IMG/VR virus record: IMGVR_UViG_3300029828_000052
Location: 1-14,002 of that record
From: a virus
Taxonomy: Duplodnaviria; Heunggongvirae; Uroviricota; Caudoviricetes
Length of the DNA: 14,002 bases
Strand: one strand, 5' to 3'
Within the stretch, counting starts at the first letter, position 1. Every line of letters begins with the position of its first letter. Under the pieces are notes generated by a model. It made no database searches, was not told where the DNA came from, and saw nothing but the letters and a program-made list of their open reading frames with translations. The position numbers and the translations under genes were made by a program. Positions 10,299-13,675 of the stretch are shown here, in pieces.

Positions 10299-10814
10299 AT
10301 GGCGTTAACACACCGCGAACTCTGTCAGATTGCGTATAAGTTCCTTAAGCGCAACGGGTTCAAGGTTTGTTTTCATGACCGCTTTATAGCTGTAACCAGT
10401 ACCGGAGAACAGCCAGATGCTATGGGATTCAGAAATTCAGCATCATGCCTGATAGAGGCGAAATGTTCTCGTGCTGACTTGTTGGCAGATAGAAAAAAGC
10501 GTTTTCGTAAAAATCCGTCTCTTGGAATGGGCGACTGGCGATTCTTTATTAGTGAGCCGGGAATTATTTCAGTTGAGGATTTACCACCTGGCTGGGGATT
10601 ACTTCACGTTGTTAACGGAAGAGTACGGAAAGTACATGGGTGGCCCAAGGGGAATTGCTGTTGGGGTAACCCTGAAGATAAACCTTTTATTGGGAATAAG
10701 CAGGTTGAATGCGATTACATGTTATCTGCATTAAGGCGCATGGAGTTGAGAGGGCACCTTAATGAAATATATGACGGCGTAATTGTTAATAAGAAAGAAG
10801 GAAACGCGGCATGA
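10299..10814 (+). CDS. Hypothetical protein (171 aa) with PD-(D/E)XK nuclease-like motif
   Basis: ATG at 10299 with AAGGAG SD 6 nt upstream (the track start at 10227 overlaps the previous gene). GEQPDAMGF followed by CLIEAKCS fits a PD...ExK signature. Confidence 0.65.
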   Translation: MALTHRELCQIAYKFLKRNGFKVCFHDRFIAVTSTGEQPDAMGFRNSASCLIEAKCSRADLLADRKKRFRKNPSLGMGDWRFFISEPGIISVEDLPPGWGLLHVVNGRVRKVHGWPKGNCCWGNPEDKPFIGNKQVECDYMLSALRRMELRGHLNEIYDGVIVNKKEGNAA

Positions 10815-11317
10815 CCACTATTACCAAAGAGCGACTACTGACAATCAAGCAGTGGCGCGAAACATACGGACCTGGTAGCAACGTTATACTGCCAGCAGAA
10901 GAAGCGGAAGAACTGGCACGGATTGCACTGGCATCACTGGAAGCAGAGCCGGTGGTTTACATGTGGGATAGCGAAAGAAAAGATATTGATGCCCCCGGGT
11001 ATTATCGGGCTGAGCATTTAGTGTTCGCTGAGAGTAGTGTTAAGCAATGGGGAGGGCGAGTTGTTCCACTTTACACCGCCCCGCCAGCGACGGTAGTGCC
11101 GGAATTTGAAACATGGTTTAACAGCCAGGAGCCAGGGAGGAGTATATGCAGCACACAGATTCGTCGCTCCCTTCAGGAAATCTCATGGAACGCCTGCTGC
11201 GCCGCTCCCTTCAGGAAATCTCATGGAACGCCTGCTGCGCCGCCATGCTTCAGGGGAAAGGCGATGGTATCCTCACCAATGAGGATACCAAAGGGGACGT
11301 TCAGGTACGGGAATTAA
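10811..11317 (+). CDS. Hypothetical protein, C-terminus frameshifted by a 38-bp tandem duplication (possible pseudogene)
   Basis: ATGA overlap with the upstream gene; protein-like up to the repeat at about 11165, then an aberrant tail (PFRKSHGTPAAPPCFRGKAMVSSPMRIPKGTFRYGN). Confidence 0.55.
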   Translation: MTTITKERLLTIKQWRETYGPGSNVILPAEEAEELARIALASLEAEPVVYMWDSERKDIDAPGYYRAEHLVFAESSVKQWGGRVVPLYTAPPATVVPEFETWFNSQEPGRSICSTQIRRSLQEISWNACCAAPFRKSHGTPAAPPCFRGKAMVSSPMRIPKGTFRYGN

Positions 11318-11442
11318 CAATGCTGATTAAACAACTGGCTAGCCAATTGAGGAAAGCGAAGCCGAACTGCAAATTACCGGAGAAGGCGATGGTCTACCTG
11401 AAGCGAAACGGACTGATAAGCGCGGAGGATATTTTACGATGA
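11146..11442 (+). CDS. ORF carrying the displaced C-terminal part of the upstream gene (98 aa from ATG 11146)
   Basis: ATG at 11146 with GGGAGGAG SD; after the duplication the frame reads a protein-like tail (GILTNEDTKGDVQVRELTMLIKQLASQLRKAK...). Removing one repeat copy fuses it in-frame to 10811. Confidence 0.4.
   Translation: MQHTDSSLPSGNLMERLLRRSLQEISWNACCAAMLQGKGDGILTNEDTKGDVQVRELTMLIKQLASQLRKAKPNCKLPEKAMVYLKRNGLISAEDILR
11165..11243. repeat. Perfect 38-bp tandem direct duplication (2 copies) inside coding sequence
   Basis: GCTCCCTTCAGGAAATCTCATGGAACGCCTGCTGCGCC at 11166-11203 and again at 11204-11241, checked base by base; period-38 identity spans 11165-11243. Confidence 0.95.
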
Positions 11443-11522
11443 CCTGGCCTGAAGCATTCACAACGGTAGGAATTGCGATGGCGGTGGCGCTGGTGGTGTA
11501 TTCGATTTGCCGCTGGGGATAA
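11439..11522 (+). CDS. Putative small hydrophobic peptide (27 aa)
   Basis: My own translation: MTWPEAFTTVGIAMAVALVVYSICRWG. ATGA overlap with the stop of 11146..11442; GGAGG about 10 nt upstream. Speculative. Confidence 0.3.
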   Translation: MTWPEAFTTVGIAMAVALVVYSICRWG

Positions 11523-11674
11523 AAACGGTTTGCGGGAAAAGGAGAGTTAAGTAGAATTGCTGCGGGTGCTTGAGGCTATCTGCCTCAGGCATGAACACCA
11601 AAAGGCAGATAGAGAAAAGCCCCAGTTAACATTACGCGTCCTGCAAGACGCTTAACATTAATCTGAGGCTCCCT

Positions 11675-11887
11675 ATGCATGACAACATCAGGTTAGCCTC
11701 TTACGTGCCGAAAGGCAAGGAGAAGCAGGCTATGAAGCAGCAAAAGGCGATGTTAATCGCCCTGATCGTCATCTGTTTAACCGTCATAGTGACGGCACTG
11801 GTAACGAGGAAAGACCTCTGCGAGGTACGAATCCGAACCGGCCAGACGGAGGTCGCTGTCTTCACAGCTTACGAACCTGAGGAGTAA
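11675..11887 (+). CDS. Mok-like reading frame (in-frame N-terminal extension of hok, 70 aa)
   Basis: Complete 70-aa ORF that contains Hok; this architecture matches the annotated chromosomal mok/hok pairs as I recall them. Confidence 0.5.
   Translation: MHDNIRLASYVPKGKEKQAMKQQKAMLIALIVICLTVIVTALVTRKDLCEVRIRTGQTEVAVFTAYEPEE
11732..11887 (+). CDS. hokD: Hok/Gef-family type I toxin (51 aa), HokD-like
   Basis: MKQQKAMLIALIVICLTVIVTALVTRKDLCEVRIRTGQTEVAVFTAYEPEE: single transmembrane helix and conserved C-terminus typical of Hok; followed by a 3' stem-loop and an intrinsic terminator. Confidence 0.85.
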   Translation: MKQQKAMLIALIVICLTVIVTALVTRKDLCEVRIRTGQTEVAVFTAYEPEE

Positions 11888-11955
11888 GAGACCAGGCGAG
11901 GGAGAAATCCCTCGCCACCTCTGATGTGTCAGGCATCCTCAATGCACCCGCACTT

Positions 11956-11980
11956 AACCCGCTTCGGCGGGTTTATTTTA
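11956..11980 (+). terminator. Rho-independent terminator downstream of hok
   Basis: ACCCGC-TTCG-GCGGGT stem-loop followed by TTATTTTAT. Confidence 0.7.
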
Positions 11981-12345
11981 TCTGTAAATATTTTTATAAA
12001 AATAATGCCCACACACAGCATAAAACAAAAAGTATCACAGATAAAAAAGGAGCGTAATGTGCAGATTTGTTGTTTTCCATATTTACTCACTTTAACATAA
12101 TCAATATTGATATGGTTGTTGTTTTGGTGGTTTCAAACGAGATGTTATGGTGATCTGGTAAAATTGCATAACATTAAAATTTAATTTATCTAATCGCTTT
12201 TAATAATAAGCGTTGTGTTTATCCCAACAATCTGTTGTTTGACTTTTATTCCATTAATGTAGGGGCTTTACACTGGAACCAGTTTATTTATACTTTATAC
12301 GCCAGCCTGAACAACTGGCACCTGCTGCGCCAGCAGAGACAACCG

Positions 12346-12624
12346 ATGGCGCACGATACCAAATTACACAATTCTGATGATTCTGCCGTCTTTGCCAGCA
12401 GGTGCGGACGGCGTTTTCATGCATTCAAATCGGACTGGTTCCAGCATCCACCATGCACTGAAGAGCAGGCTGAATGGATAATTCAGTGTTACCGCAGGCG
12501 CGGATACGAGGTTAAAAAAGCCCTTAGCCTCGACTACCGTCACTGGATAATCTCCGTCAGGCTTCCTTACTCCGAACGCCCACCGCGTCCGTCCCGCACA
12601 TTCCAGCAACGCATCTGGAGGTAA
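12346..12624 (+). CDS. Hypothetical protein (92 aa), Rem-like position between hok and the DUF968 gene
   Basis: ATG at 12346 inside ORF 12235..12624 (track start is a TTG in the AT-rich region); weak SD; stop 1 nt before the next gene's GTG. Confidence 0.5.
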   Translation: MAHDTKLHNSDDSAVFASRCGRRFHAFKSDWFQHPPCTEEQAEWIIQCYRRRGYEVKKALSLDYRHWIISVRLPYSERPPRPSRTFQQRIWR

Positions 12625-12625
12625 C

Positions 12626-13675
12626 GTGCGGGTATTACTTCGACCTGTTCTGGTACCGGAACTCGGGCTGGTGATAGTTAAGCCGGGCCGTGAATCCATG
12701 CCGGTATTCCACAATACCCGGGTACTGGTGGAGCCGGAACCGAAAAGCATGCGTAATCTGCCGTCCGGGGTCGTTCCTGCCGTTCGCCAGCCGCTGGCGG
12801 AGGATAAATCATTACTGCCATTTTTCAGCGACGAACGAGTGATTCGTGCTGCTGGTGGCGCTGGCGCATTGTCTGACTGGTTACTGCGCCATGTTAAATC
12901 CTGCCAGTGGCCACACGGCGATTATCACCATAGTGAAACCGTCATTCACCGTTATGGTACCGGCGCAATGGTGTTGTGCTGGCACTGCGACAACCAGTTG
13001 CGTGACCAGACCTCCGAATCACTTGAGCAACTTGCTCACCAAAACTTGTCAGCATGGATGATTGACGTCATTCGTCACGCAATGAATGGCACACAGGAGC
13101 GGGAATTATCGCTGGCTGAATTATCCTGGTGGGCGGTCCGCAATCAGGTGGCGGACGCGCTACCGGAGGCGGTATTACGTCGTTCGCTGGGGTTGCGTGC
13201 GGAAAAAATCCGCTCAATGTACCGTGAAAGCGACATCGTACCGGGAGAGCAGACCGCCACCAGCATACTGAAACAGCGCACAAAAAATCTTGCGCCGCTG
13301 CCTCACGCCCACCAGCAACAGAACCCACCACAGGAAAAGACGGTGGTCAGCATTGCCGTTGATCCTGAGTCTCCGGAATCTTTCATGAAACGACCTAAAC
13401 GTCGCCGCTGGGTTAACGAGAAATACACACGCTGGGTGAAGACACAGCCGTGTGCGTGTTGTGGTAAGCCAGCCGACGATCCCCATCACCTGATTGGTCA
13501 TGGTCAGGGCGGAATGGGGACAAAATCTCACGATATTTTCACGCTACCGCTGTGTCGGGAGCATCACAACGAGCTTCATGCGGATCCGCTGGCGTTCGAA
13601 GAAAAGCATGGTTCTCAGGTTGATTTAATTTTTCGTTTTCTTGATCACGCCTTTGCAACTGGCGTGCTTGGGTAA
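12626..13675 (+). CDS. DUF968 domain protein, YdfU-like (349 aa), with Cys/His HNH-like motif
   Basis: GTG start with GGAGG SD; C-terminal CACCGKPADDPHHLIGHGQGG...CREHHNELH; sits immediately upstream of rusA as in Qin-type prophages. Confidence 0.85.
   Translation: MRVLLRPVLVPELGLVIVKPGRESMPVFHNTRVLVEPEPKSMRNLPSGVVPAVRQPLAEDKSLLPFFSDERVIRAAGGAGALSDWLLRHVKSCQWPHGDYHHSETVIHRYGTGAMVLCWHCDNQLRDQTSESLEQLAHQNLSAWMIDVIRHAMNGTQERELSLAELSWWAVRNQVADALPEAVLRRSLGLRAEKIRSMYRESDIVPGEQTATSILKQRTKNLAPLPHAHQQQNPPQEKTVVSIAVDPESPESFMKRPKRRRWVNEKYTRWVKTQPCACCGKPADDPHHLIGHGQGGMGTKSHDIFTLPLCREHHNELHADPLAFEEKHGSQVDLIFRFLDHAFATGVLG

What the first reader, a model, noticed from the sequence alone, without database searches (positions are those of the whole stretch)
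11439..11990. hok/mok type I toxin locus without relBE, preceded by a coupled 27-aa hydrophobic ORF
The Hok toxin is intact (51 aa) with an in-frame Mok extension, a 3' stem-loop (GGCGAGGGA-GAAA-TCCCTCGCC, 11895-11916) and a terminator, so the locus may be functional; chromosomal hok copies are often inactivated. An inverted repeat GCTATCTGCCT/AGGCAGATAG (11574-11614) lies in the presumed mRNA leader. I could not place the Sok antisense RNA confidently; by analogy it should be encoded on the minus strand across the mok start (about 11640-11720). A 27-aa membrane-like ORF (11439-11522) is translationally coupled to the upstream gene. In K-12 Qin, relBE sits upstream of hokD; it is absent here.
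Basis: partly seen in the sequence, partly recalled or inferred. Interest (0 to 1): 0.5.

Follow-up and report, generated by a model that had tools for sequence, protein, structure and literature searches.

The report
Intact prophage hok/mok/sok toxin–antitoxin locus
This is an ordinary, complete copy of the well-known hok/sok RNA-controlled toxin–antitoxin module that many E. coli prophages carry (same type as hokW/sokW of Shiga-toxin phage 933W), and the small 27-codon gene in front of it is a separate, widely conserved but never annotated phage mini-gene.

Summary
Window 11530-11981 holds a complete hok/mok/sok type I toxin-antitoxin locus.

- **Toxin:** hok (11732-11887) encodes a protein identical to K-12 HokD. 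mok (11675-11887) is in frame with it.
- **RNA elements:** tac, ucb, fbi, the post-stop hairpin and the terminator are all present.
- **Sok:** it lies on the minus strand at 11683->11615. Its promoter is TTGCCT-17-TAACCT (11718-11690), identical to that of sokW.
- **Closest known:** the locus is 93% identical to hokW/mokW/sokW of phage 933W/Sp5, which was shown experimentally to be a working type I TA.
- **Frequency:** such leaders occur in 4263 of 5426 complete E. coli genomes. The K-12 relE-hokD junction occurs in only 1201, so "no relBE" is the common state.

The hok part is therefore already known.

The 27-aa ORF (11439-11522) does not belong to hok. It is an independent conserved module that follows at least four different upstream genes, always with an ATGA overlap and a Shine-Dalgarno sequence. 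It precedes hok in only 72 of 127 copies. It keeps 27 codons in copies down to about 60% identity, with dN/dS of 0.09-0.57. It is probably a real, unannotated membrane mini-protein.

In this window its upstream partner gene is broken by a private 38-nt tandem duplication (11165-11240).

The parts
10811..11442 (+). Upstream early-region gene (PHROG 660 type, no known function). It is split into two frames here (10811-11317 and 11146-11442).
   Evidence: ORF list. PHROG hits. Deleting one 38-nt repeat copy restores a single 197-aa ORF that matches the ETEC1706 protein.
11165..11240 (+). Perfect 38-nt tandem duplication (two full copies) that frameshifts the upstream gene.
   Evidence: TRF: period 38, 100% match. 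All 25 E. coli genomes that carry this gene lack the extra copy: the 141-nt query spans 103 nt in them.
11424..11428 (+). GGAGG Shine-Dalgarno sequence for the 27-aa ORF, 10 nt before its ATG.
   Evidence: Sequence. An equivalent GGAGG or GGGG element is kept in four unrelated upstream contexts.
11439..11522 (+). 27-codon ORF MTWPEAFTTVGIAMAVALVVYSICRWG. Predicted single-pass membrane mini-protein. It is an independent conserved module and is not part of hok/sok.
11530..11557 (+). Probable hok promoter: -35 TTGCGG (11530-11535), 16-nt spacer, -10 TAGAAT (11552-11557).
   Evidence: Read from the sequence. Identical in 933W. Below the threshold of the consensus scan, so it is placed by position relative to the mRNA 5' end and is an inference.
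11564..11981 (+). Full-length hok mRNA (about 418 nt).
   Evidence: The Rfam RF01794 model starts at 11564. Terminator. Fold z=-9.6.
11564..11575 (+). tac element GGGTGCTTGAGG at the mRNA 5' end.
   Evidence: Pairs with fbi in the MFE fold. Pairs with ucb in the isolated 5' segment. Forms a local metastable hairpin in the 3'-truncated RNA.
11575..11612 (+).
   Evidence: An A-U to G-C compensatory change occurs in 5 of 49 loci.
11617..11625 (+). ucb (anti-SD) AAGCCCCAG, which pairs with the mok SD region in the full-length fold.
   Evidence: MFE fold. Helix 4 is 95.9% paired across 49 loci.
11615..11683 (-). Sok antisense RNA (about 69 nt): a single-stranded 5' tail, a long hairpin, then GGGGCUUUUCU.
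   Evidence: Maps onto annotated K-12 sokC and 933W sokW. Fold -33 to -35 kcal/mol, z about -5.6.
11690..11718 (-). sok promoter: -35 TTGCCT (11718-11713), 17-nt spacer, -10 TAACCT (11695-11690). The predicted start site is G at 11683.
   Evidence: Identical to 933W. The same -10 element was mutated to silence sokW in PMC8621323 (primer YO-421). The R1-type plasmid has TTGCGC/TATCCT at the same place. Not found by the generic consensus scan.
11665..11668 (+). mok Shine-Dalgarno sequence GAGG.
   Evidence: Sequence. Sequestered by ucb in the full-length fold.
11675..11887 (+). mok ORF, 70 aa, in frame with hok.
   Evidence: The geometry matches K-12 mokC/hokC and 933W mokW/hokW. The exact 70-aa product is seen on 814 contigs.
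11732..11887 (+). hok toxin gene, 51 aa, identical to K-12 HokD. Its SD is AAGGAG at 11717-11722.
11870..11872 (+). Tyr47 codon TAC inside an invariant TACGAA motif. This is the reported TadA A-to-I editing site type (Tyr to Cys).
   Evidence: Invariant columns in 49 loci. Statement in bioRxiv 10.1101/2025.08.07.668861.
11895..11916 (+). Post-stop hairpin.
   Evidence: Five of its 9 pairs show changes on both sides.
11937..11949 (+). fbi element CCTCAATGCACCC, complementary to tac with one bulged base.
   Evidence: The helix is 98% paired across 49 loci.
11956..11981 (+). Intrinsic terminator of the hok mRNA.

Best explanation
Window 11530-11981 is a complete hok/mok/sok type I toxin-antitoxin module of the prophage hokD/hokW type. 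It sits in the nin region of a lambdoid prophage, between the replication genes and DUF968-RusA-Q.

The mechanism is inferred by homology to R1 hok/sok and to hokW/sokW.

- A weak promoter makes a stable mRNA of about 418 nt.
- The mRNA's 5' tac element pairs with the 3' fbi element, and ucb masks the mok Shine-Dalgarno sequence. The full-length RNA is therefore translationally silent and does not bind Sok.
- Slow 3' trimming removes fbi. tac then pairs with ucb, the mok SD opens, and translation of mok drives translation of hok.
- Sok is a labile RNA of about 69 nt made constitutively from the opposite strand (11683->11615). It pairs across the mok start, blocks translation and targets the duplex for RNase III.
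- When Sok synthesis stops, for example on prophage loss or induction, Hok (51 aa) inserts into the inner membrane and kills or lyses the cell.

Shown here: all sequence and structure elements are present and undisrupted. Inferred: transcription, processing and toxicity.

The 27-aa ORF upstream is a separate gene, most likely a small inner-membrane protein translated by coupling to whatever gene precedes it.
For: - **Toxin:** Pfam HOK_GEF E=1e-23. The Hok protein is identical to HokD.
- **Leader:** Rfam RF01794 scores 118 bits against a gathering score of 59 over 11564-11737.
- **Full-length fold:** the MFE structure pairs tac (11564-11575) with fbi (11937-11949) and ucb with the mok SD, z=-9.6.
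- **5' segment:** the isolated first 62 nt fold as a tac-ucb stem at 80% ensemble frequency.
- **Conservation of structure:** across 49 related loci, 93.4% of cells are paired against about 40% when partners are slid. 22 pairs show changes on both sides.
- **Sok:** its position agrees with two independent annotations, K-12 sokC and 933W sokW. It has a strong hairpin followed by a U-tail.
- **sok promoter:** identical to that of sokW, whose -10 mutation abolished antitoxin activity (PMC8621323).
- **No disruption:** the locus aligns gap-free with 933W except for a 2-nt indel before the mok ATG and a 1-nt indel in the loop of the 5' leader hairpin, at 93% identity. There is no IS element and no frameshift.
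- **Experimental precedent:** hokW-sokW was shown to be a working type I TA.
Against: - No expression data exist for this copy.
- The sok promoter (TTGCCT/TAACCT) and the hok promoter both fall below a generic sigma-70 consensus threshold.
- The MFE fold of the 3'-truncated RNA shows the local metastable tac hairpin, not the tac-ucb stem. The activating rearrangement is therefore supported only for the isolated 5' segment.
- Intact chromosomal hokA, hokB and hokC loci were reported unable to mediate post-segregational killing (summarised in bioRxiv 10.1101/2025.08.07.668861).
- Full toxicity may need A-to-I editing of Tyr47.
Confidence: 0.9

Rival explanations
1. The locus is a structurally intact but physiologically inert relic, like other chromosomal hok loci. 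Sok is in permanent excess or the mRNA is never activated, so it neither stabilises the prophage nor kills.
For: [quoted passage not shown] Both promoters here are weak by consensus.
Against: The 93%-identical hokW-sokW is toxic and is neutralised by its own Sok. It is switched on by mitomycin C in a RecA-dependent way and doubles phage release (PMC8621323). All elements are conserved, with compensatory changes across 49 loci, which argues for ongoing selection.
Confidence: 0.2
2. The 27-aa ORF is not a gene. It is a conserved non-coding 'linker' of DNA at a mosaic junction that promotes recombinational exchange of neighbouring modules.
For: The 84-nt block sits exactly where flanks change on both sides. 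Its first 20 nt are invariant in all seven sequences aligned before the pattern scan, which selected on those 20 nt. Among close copies, variable sites are not concentrated at third positions (15/14/18). RefSeq (PGAP) records do not annotate it.
Against: - Conservation starts at the ATG and ends at the stop codon.
- 121 of 127 copies keep 27 codons, and the only length variants that stay open are in-frame 6-nt deletions.
- Copies at 59-67% identity (VT1-Sakai, PhiR12_4) still have exactly 27 codons, conservative hydrophobic replacements and a fixed WP...YS.CRWG frame.
- dN/dS is 0.09-0.57 in this frame and is higher in the other two frames in 8 of 10 pairs.
- A Shine-Dalgarno sequence and an ATGA or 1-nt overlap are kept behind at least four unrelated upstream genes.
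Confidence: 0.2
3. hok here is expressed mainly as a passenger of the phage early-right operon by read-through, as hokD is in the K-12 relBEF operon. Sok control would then be secondary.
For: No terminator lies between the 27-aa ORF stop (11522) and the hok promoter. hok has the same orientation as the replication-nin-Q genes. In Sp5, sokW RNA vanishes and HokW appears on RecA-dependent induction. That would fit sense read-through interfering with the convergent sok promoter, which is an inference.
Against: A 5'-extended transcript would bury tac inside the RNA and would probably not follow the tac/fbi/ucb pathway that is so clearly conserved. The locus keeps its own promoter-like -10 TAGAAT. 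Nothing here tests read-through.
Confidence: 0.25

Closest known systems
hokW/mokW/sokW of Stx2 phage 933W and Sakai prophage 5 (RefSeq NC_000924.1; Takada et al. 2021, PMC8621323)
   Same: - 93% nucleotide identity over ORF27 plus the whole hok locus.
- Same order: upstream gene, unannotated 27-codon ORF, sok (minus strand), mok and hok in frame.
- Identical sok promoter, hok promoter, tac, ucb and hok SD.
- A 51-aa Hok with the same first 44 residues.
   Different: - The mok codons 2-6 and the Sok 5' tail differ (MHDNI here, MLNTC in 933W), with a 2-nt indel before the mok ATG. The Sok/hok pairing specificity is therefore probably different.
- The Hok C-terminus is TAYEPEE here and VDYESEK in 933W.
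- The terminator differs.
- Here the locus lies in the nin region. In 933W it follows ead/Ea22-like genes.
hokD (relF) of the E. coli K-12 Qin prophage
   Same: Identical 51-aa Hok protein, identical 3' UTR including fbi and the post-stop hairpin, and the same downstream neighbourhood with a DUF968 (ydfU-type) gene.
   Different: K-12 has relB-relE in place of everything upstream of the hok SD. It has no tac, ucb, mok or sok. That arrangement is found in 1201 of 5426 complete genomes. Full leaders like the one here are found in 4263.
hok/mok/sok (parB) of plasmid R1 and IncFII relatives
   Same: Same architecture: a tac...fbi fold-back, ucb, mok upstream of and in frame with hok (in the IncFII copy read here), and Sok from a TTGCGC-17-TATCCT promoter at the homologous position. 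The mok N-terminus here (MHDNIR) resembles the IncFII one (MSDNIR).
   Different: About 45% identity at the Hok protein level (HokW against R1 Hok is 44%). The leader hairpins differ in length. The -10 is TAACCT rather than TATCCT. The locus is carried on a prophage, not a plasmid.
hokC/mokC/sokC (gef) of E. coli K-12
   Same: Alignable leader with an identical tac. mok is in frame and shares its stop with hok. The sokC 5' end lies 8 nt inside mok, exactly as placed here.
   Different: The Sok hairpin is 18 nt shorter in hokC. K-12 hokC has IS186 immediately downstream, and nothing of the kind is present here.

Membership tests
[quoted passage not shown] | Small hydrophobic Hok/Gef toxin (Pfam PF01848) | tested here: met
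   E=1.2e-23, 82.9 bits against a cut-off of 22, full-length domain. PHROG 251, E=2.8e-33.
[quoted passage not shown] | mok reading frame that starts upstream of hok with its own SD and overlaps hok | tested here: met
   ATG 11675 with GAGG 6 nt upstream, 70 aa, in frame with hok. The geometry matches the annotated mokC and mokW. Translational coupling itself was not tested.
[quoted passage not shown] | Antisense Sok RNA gene on the opposite strand across the mok start, with promoter and terminator | tested here: met
   Homology mapping from sokC and sokW gives 11683->11615. [quoted passage not shown] Hairpin plus U-tail, z about -5.6. The transcript itself is not testable here.
[quoted passage not shown] | Long-range tac (5') / fbi (3') pairing that closes the full-length mRNA | tested here: met
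   12 pairs in the MFE fold between 11564-11575 and 11937-11949. 98% of cells paired in 49 loci. The tac sequence was fixed by the way those loci were collected.
[quoted passage not shown] | ucb masks the mok SD in the full-length RNA, and tac-ucb pairing can replace it after 3' trimming | tested here: inconclusive
   ucb-SD pairing is present in the full-length MFE fold. The tac-ucb stem forms in the isolated 62-nt 5' segment. The MFE fold of the 369-nt truncated RNA shows the local metastable tac hairpin instead.
[quoted passage not shown] | Match to the curated covariance model of the hok leader / Sok region (Rfam RF01794) | tested here: met
   118.2 bits against a gathering score of 59, full model 1-157. 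The hit is on the hok-sense strand.
[quoted passage not shown] | Locus not interrupted by IS elements, deletions or frameshifts | tested here: met
   Colinear with the 933W locus and with 48 other loci. hok and mok are open.
[quoted passage not shown] | Toxicity of Hok, its neutralisation by Sok, and slow 3' processing of the mRNA | not testable with these tools
   Shown only for the 93%-identical hokW-sokW (PMC8621323) and for R1 (described in PMC9841398).
relBE-hokD (relBEF) operon arrangement of K-12 Qin | relE immediately upstream of hokD, replacing the hok leader | tested here: not met
   Alignment with K-12: similarity begins only at the hok SD. There is no relB or relE ORF in 10800-11730.
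Any described protein family, for the 27-aa ORF | Significant match to Pfam, NCBIfam or PHROGs | tested here: not met
   Pfam: none. NCBIfam: only KdpF at E=0.024, below its cut-off. PHROG 4612 at E=0.019. No paper contains the peptide string. A few GenBank records call it 'bacteriophage protein' or 'hypothetical protein'.

The most novel reading that the evidence does not exclude
The 27-codon ORF (11439-11522) is a genuinely translated and so far undescribed family of phage mini membrane proteins (consensus M-x-W-P-E/D-A-F/I ... Y-S-I-C-R-W-G). It is present in about a quarter of E. coli genomes. It is always the translationally coupled last cistron of an early-region gene block, and it marks the junction where cargo such as hok/sok or type II TA pairs is inserted. 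Because the published functional hokW-sokW clone began at this ORF's start (primer YO-432), the ORF may have contributed, unnoticed, to phenotypes attributed to hokW-sokW.
Probability: 0.55. Interest if true: 0.35.

Novelty: already known. Interest (0 to 1): 0.15.

Why it matters
For the hok/sok locus this is a confirmation, not a discovery. It is a correctly recognised, intact copy of a module that is annotated in thousands of genomes and characterised experimentally in 933W/Sp5. The practical gain is precise coordinates for Sok, its promoter and the folding elements, which automated annotation leaves out. It also corrects the impression that the K-12 relBE-hokD arrangement is the norm.

The modestly interesting by-product is the 27-codon ORF. 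It is conserved, apparently under purifying selection, widespread, unannotated in RefSeq, and placed at a recurrent mosaic junction of lambdoid phages. That makes it a cheap candidate for small-protein validation.

Tried and rejected
- **Generic promoter scan.** It found neither the sok nor the hok promoter, because both fall below its 9-of-12 threshold. The promoters were placed by homology instead.
- They were replaced by tblastn on phages, an exact-pattern scan of IMG/VR and an exact cluster look-up.
- **Cluster look-up artefact.** The look-up grouped the 27-aa peptide with DUF551 proteins. Reading those sequences showed that they do not contain it and are simply the upstream neighbours. 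The idea that the ORF is the C-terminus of a DUF551 protein was rejected.
- **ORF27 as part of the hok locus.** Rejected. Only 72 of 127 copies are followed by hok. The others are followed by type II TA genes, xis-int, ea22 or terminators.
- **Low-stringency Rfam search of 11300-12700.** It gave nothing beyond RF01794 (ceN48 and rsmX at E above 0.03 are noise).
- **In-frame mok as unusual.** My recollection that R1 mok is out of frame with hok could not be confirmed. In the IncFII plasmid copy with an R1-identical Hok, the upstream ATG is in frame. The in-frame mok here is therefore not treated as unusual.
- **Literature search for the peptide string.** It found nothing.
Full report
**1. What is in the sequence**

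The region was read directly and its ORFs were listed. hok runs from ATG 11732 to the stop codon that ends at 11887 and encodes 51 aa. An upstream ATG at 11675 is in the same frame and gives a 70-aa mok product.

The hairpin GGCGAGGGA-GAAA-TCCCTCGCC lies at 11895-11916 (-19.7 kcal/mol, z=-5.9). An intrinsic terminator lies at 11956-11973.

The 27-aa ORF occupies 11439-11522, and its ATG overlaps a TGA (ATGA). All the stated features are therefore present, with coordinate errors of only 1-2 nt.

**2. Identity of the toxin and the leader**

The 51-aa product matches Pfam HOK_GEF (E=1.2e-23) and PHROG 251 'MokW-like host killing'. It is identical to K-12 HokD (alignment, exact look-up).

Rfam RF01794 ('sok') matches 11564-11737 with 118 bits against a gathering score of 59. 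The hit is on the plus strand. The model describes the region in the hok-mRNA sense, so the strand of the hit does not give the strand of Sok.

**3. The folding elements of the hok mRNA**

The defining elements of the family are summarised in PMC9841398:
- a tac/fbi stem that closes the full-length mRNA;
- ucb, which masks the mok SD;
- a tac/ucb stem after 3' trimming;
- a metastable 5' structure in the nascent RNA.

The fold results for this locus are as follows.
- **Full-length RNA (11564-11981):** the minimum-energy structure pairs GGGUGCUUGAGG (11564-11575) with CCUCAAUGCACCC (11937-11949). It also pairs AAGCCCCAG (11617-11625) with the CUGAGGCU that contains the mok SD. The energy is -177 kcal/mol with z=-9.6.
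- **First 62 nt alone:** these fold as a tac-ucb stem around the leader hairpin at 80% ensemble frequency.
- **RNA truncated at 11932:** the MFE fold shows tac in a local hairpin with GCCUCAGGCAUG. This looks like the described metastable structure and not the tac-ucb stem. I therefore score that feature as inconclusive.

On an alignment of 49 distinct related loci, the window's structure is 93.4% paired, against about 40% when partners are slid by 1-3 columns. 22 pairs show changes on both sides. These occur in the leader hairpin, the hairpin that is the complement of the Sok terminator, the post-stop hairpin and the terminator. Two caveats apply. The structure was derived from one of the aligned sequences. 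The tac box was fixed by the way the loci were collected.

**4. Where Sok is**

Two independent annotations were transferred by alignment.
- K-12 sokC starts 8 nt inside mokC and maps to a 5' end at window 11683.
- The misc_RNA sokW of phage 933W maps to 11683->11615.

On the minus strand the promoter reads TTGCCT (11718-11713), a 17-nt spacer, then TAACCT (11695-11690), with G11683 seven bases further on. The R1-type IncFII locus has TTGCGC/TATCCT at the same place.

The stretch 11690-11727 is identical in the window and in 933W. In PMC8621323 the 'pro-less' construct that abolished antitoxin activity was made with primer YO-421. That primer replaces exactly this AGGTTA.

The predicted RNA has a free 5' tail, a long hairpin and a GGGGCUUUUCU tail (-33 to -35 kcal/mol, z about -5.6).

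**5. Integrity**

The locus is colinear with 933W hokW at 93% identity. No IS element or frameshift is present.

The main differences are confined to three places:
- mok codons 2-6 and the Sok 5' tail, with a 2-nt indel;
- the Hok C-terminus;
- the terminator.

Across loci, the five residues after the Mok start are hypervariable: MLYTR, MLNTC, MNGKS, MSHKC, MLDTC and others, with MHDNI here. The following RLASYVPKGKEKQA, which overlies the sok promoter and the hok SD, is conserved. The variation therefore falls on the stretch that corresponds to the Sok 5' tail, where Sok binding starts in the R1 model. The allele here is common: the exact 70-aa product is on 814 contigs, and the 168-nt leader is 100% identical in E. 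coli SE11.

**6. relBE**

Similarity to K-12 relE-hokD begins only at the hok SD. K-12 lacks tac, ucb, mok and sok.

Among 5426 complete E. coli genomes, 4263 carry at least 80% of a leader like this one. 1201 carry the K-12 relE-hokD junction. 'Without relBE' is therefore the usual, complete state, and the K-12 arrangement is the derived one.

**7. What is known**

hok genes are known to be enriched in prophages (bioRxiv 10.1101/2025.08.07.668861).

hokW-sokW of Sakai prophage 5 has been characterised experimentally (PMC8621323):
- it is toxic;
- it is neutralised by its own Sok;
- the antitoxin effect depends partly on RNase III and Hfq;
- it is switched on by mitomycin C through RecA;
- it doubles phage release.

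The hok part of the finding is therefore already known.

The same survey reports that several intact chromosomal hok loci did not give post-segregational killing, and that hokC, hokD and hokE mRNAs are A-to-I edited at the position of Cys46. The window keeps TAC(Tyr47) within TACGAA (11870-11875), and this motif is invariant in all 49 loci.

**8. The 27-aa ORF is a separate thing**

*Distribution in phages.* tblastn finds it in 94 phage records at 59-100% identity.

*Neighbours.* The block has different neighbours on both sides.
- Upstream are at least four unrelated gene ends: ...ISAEDILR*, the DUF551 end ...PEPPQEVNQ*, ...IEQKVNQ* and an EaA-type end.
- Each of these keeps a GGAGG-like SD and an ATGA overlap (1 nt in VT1-Sakai).
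- Downstream, hok follows in 72 of 127 copies. Elsewhere the ORF is followed by a type II TA pair (ArgO145), ea22 (TH18), xis-int (VT1-Sakai), or directly by terminator hairpins.

*Evidence that it is coding.*
- Conservation begins at the ATG and ends at the stop codon.
- 121 of 127 copies keep 27 codons. The only variants that remain open are two in-frame 6-nt deletions and a few with a lost stop.
- Divergent copies still have exactly 27 codons: VT1-Sakai MNWPEAFTAVGVAIAVAFILYSLFRWG and PhiR12_4 MSWPDAIVTLGMVFAAAFVVYSICRWG.
- Pairwise dN/dS in this frame is 0.09-0.57, and it is lower than in both other frames in 8 of 10 pairs.

*Status.* No described family matches and no paper contains the peptide string. 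A few GenBank submitters called it a 'bacteriophage protein'. RefSeq records leave it out, including 933W, where it sits in exactly the same place before sokW. It occurs in 1348 of 5426 complete E. coli genomes, with up to five copies per genome.

*Reading.* I take it to be a real mini-gene for a single-pass membrane peptide, with a short acidic N-terminus, a hydrophobic stretch of about 18 residues, and a C-terminal RWG. I put this at about 0.75 confidence, and its function is unknown. The main rival is a non-coding recombination linker. The cloned hokW-sokW fragment of PMC8621323 starts at this ORF's ATG (primer YO-432).

**9. The upstream gene is broken here**

Tandem Repeats Finder reports a perfect 38-nt duplication at 11165-11243, 2.1 copies. 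Removing one copy fuses the two overlapping frames (10811-11317 and 11146-11442) into one 197-aa ORF. Its last 100 residues or so match the 181-aa protein of ETEC1706.

All 25 complete E. coli genomes that carry this gene lack the extra copy.

Ribosomes on the true gene would stop at 11317, 122 nt before the 27-aa ORF.

**10. Context**

The window's gene order matches lambdoid prophages: exonuclease ... dicB ... repressor/cro ... YdaT, DnaT-like and P replication genes ... nin-type small genes ... [ORF27] hok ... DUF968, RusA, Q. hok points the same way as the early-right operon, and no terminator separates it from the genes upstream.

It is an inference, not a result, that antiterminated read-through on induction could oppose the convergent sok promoter and so contribute to the RecA-dependent loss of Sok seen for sokW.

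**11. Verdict**

The hok/mok/sok locus is an intact, ordinary member of a known and experimentally characterised type, so it is already known and of low interest. The 27-codon ORF is the only part that is not already described, and it deserves a small-protein validation experiment.

Noticed in passing
window 11165-11240 (within 10811-11442): A perfect 38-nt tandem duplication frameshifts the gene upstream of the 27-aa ORF. Deleting one copy restores a 197-aa ORF. None of the 25 complete E. coli genomes that carry this gene has the duplication. It may be a recent private mutation or an assembly artefact.
   Followed up: yes
window 11678-11692 (mok codons 2-6 / Sok 5' tail): This short stretch is hypervariable among otherwise 90-97% identical loci (MLYTR, MLNTC, MNGKS, MSHKC, MLDTC, and MHDNI here), while the flanking sok promoter is fixed. 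The window's allele (MHDNIR, TGACAACATCAGG) resembles that of an IncFII R1-type plasmid hok (MSDNIR). Cross-talk between the prophage Sok and plasmid hok mRNA was not examined.
   Followed up: partly
window 11868-11875: hok codon 47 is TAC (Tyr) inside CTTACGAA. TACGAA is invariant in all 49 aligned loci even where neighbouring codons vary. A recent survey states that hokC, hokD and hokE mRNAs are A-to-I edited at this position (Tyr to Cys), as hokB is by TadA. The encoded toxin may therefore need editing for full activity.
   Followed up: partly
window 11564-11737, + strand: The Rfam family named 'sok' (RF01794) matches the hok-sense strand. The real Sok RNA is on the opposite strand and covers only part of the hit. 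Automated annotation from this model would put Sok on the wrong strand.
   Followed up: yes
L134 (phage 933W) 901-984; PMC8621323 primer YO-432: The 27-codon ORF sits unannotated in front of sokW in 933W. The published functional hokW-sokW clone starts exactly at this ORF's ATG, so that construct carried the ORF.
   Followed up: partly
L136 (Shigella phage POCJ13) 901-909: In this phage the 27-codon ORF has a TGG to TAG nonsense mutation at codon 3, so the ORF is dispensable in at least one phage.
   Followed up: no
window 12235-12624: The mechanical ORF of 129 aa (TTG start) is probably a 92-aa gene starting at ATG 12346. Only residues 64-129 match PHROG 1212, and relatives annotate a 279-nt CDS that ends 1 nt before the DUF968 gene. 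The AT-rich 11990-12340 stretch in front of it carries the two promoter-like sites found by the scan.
   Followed up: partly
IMG/VR loci (downstream 50-mers): When hok is absent, the 27-codon ORF is very often followed immediately by a GC-rich hairpin with a T-run. Examples are CCCCGGATTGATGGTCCGGGGTTTT and CCAGCCCTTATGGGGCTGG. This suggests it is typically the last cistron of its transcription unit, and that hok/sok or TA pairs are inserted at that operon end.
   Followed up: partly
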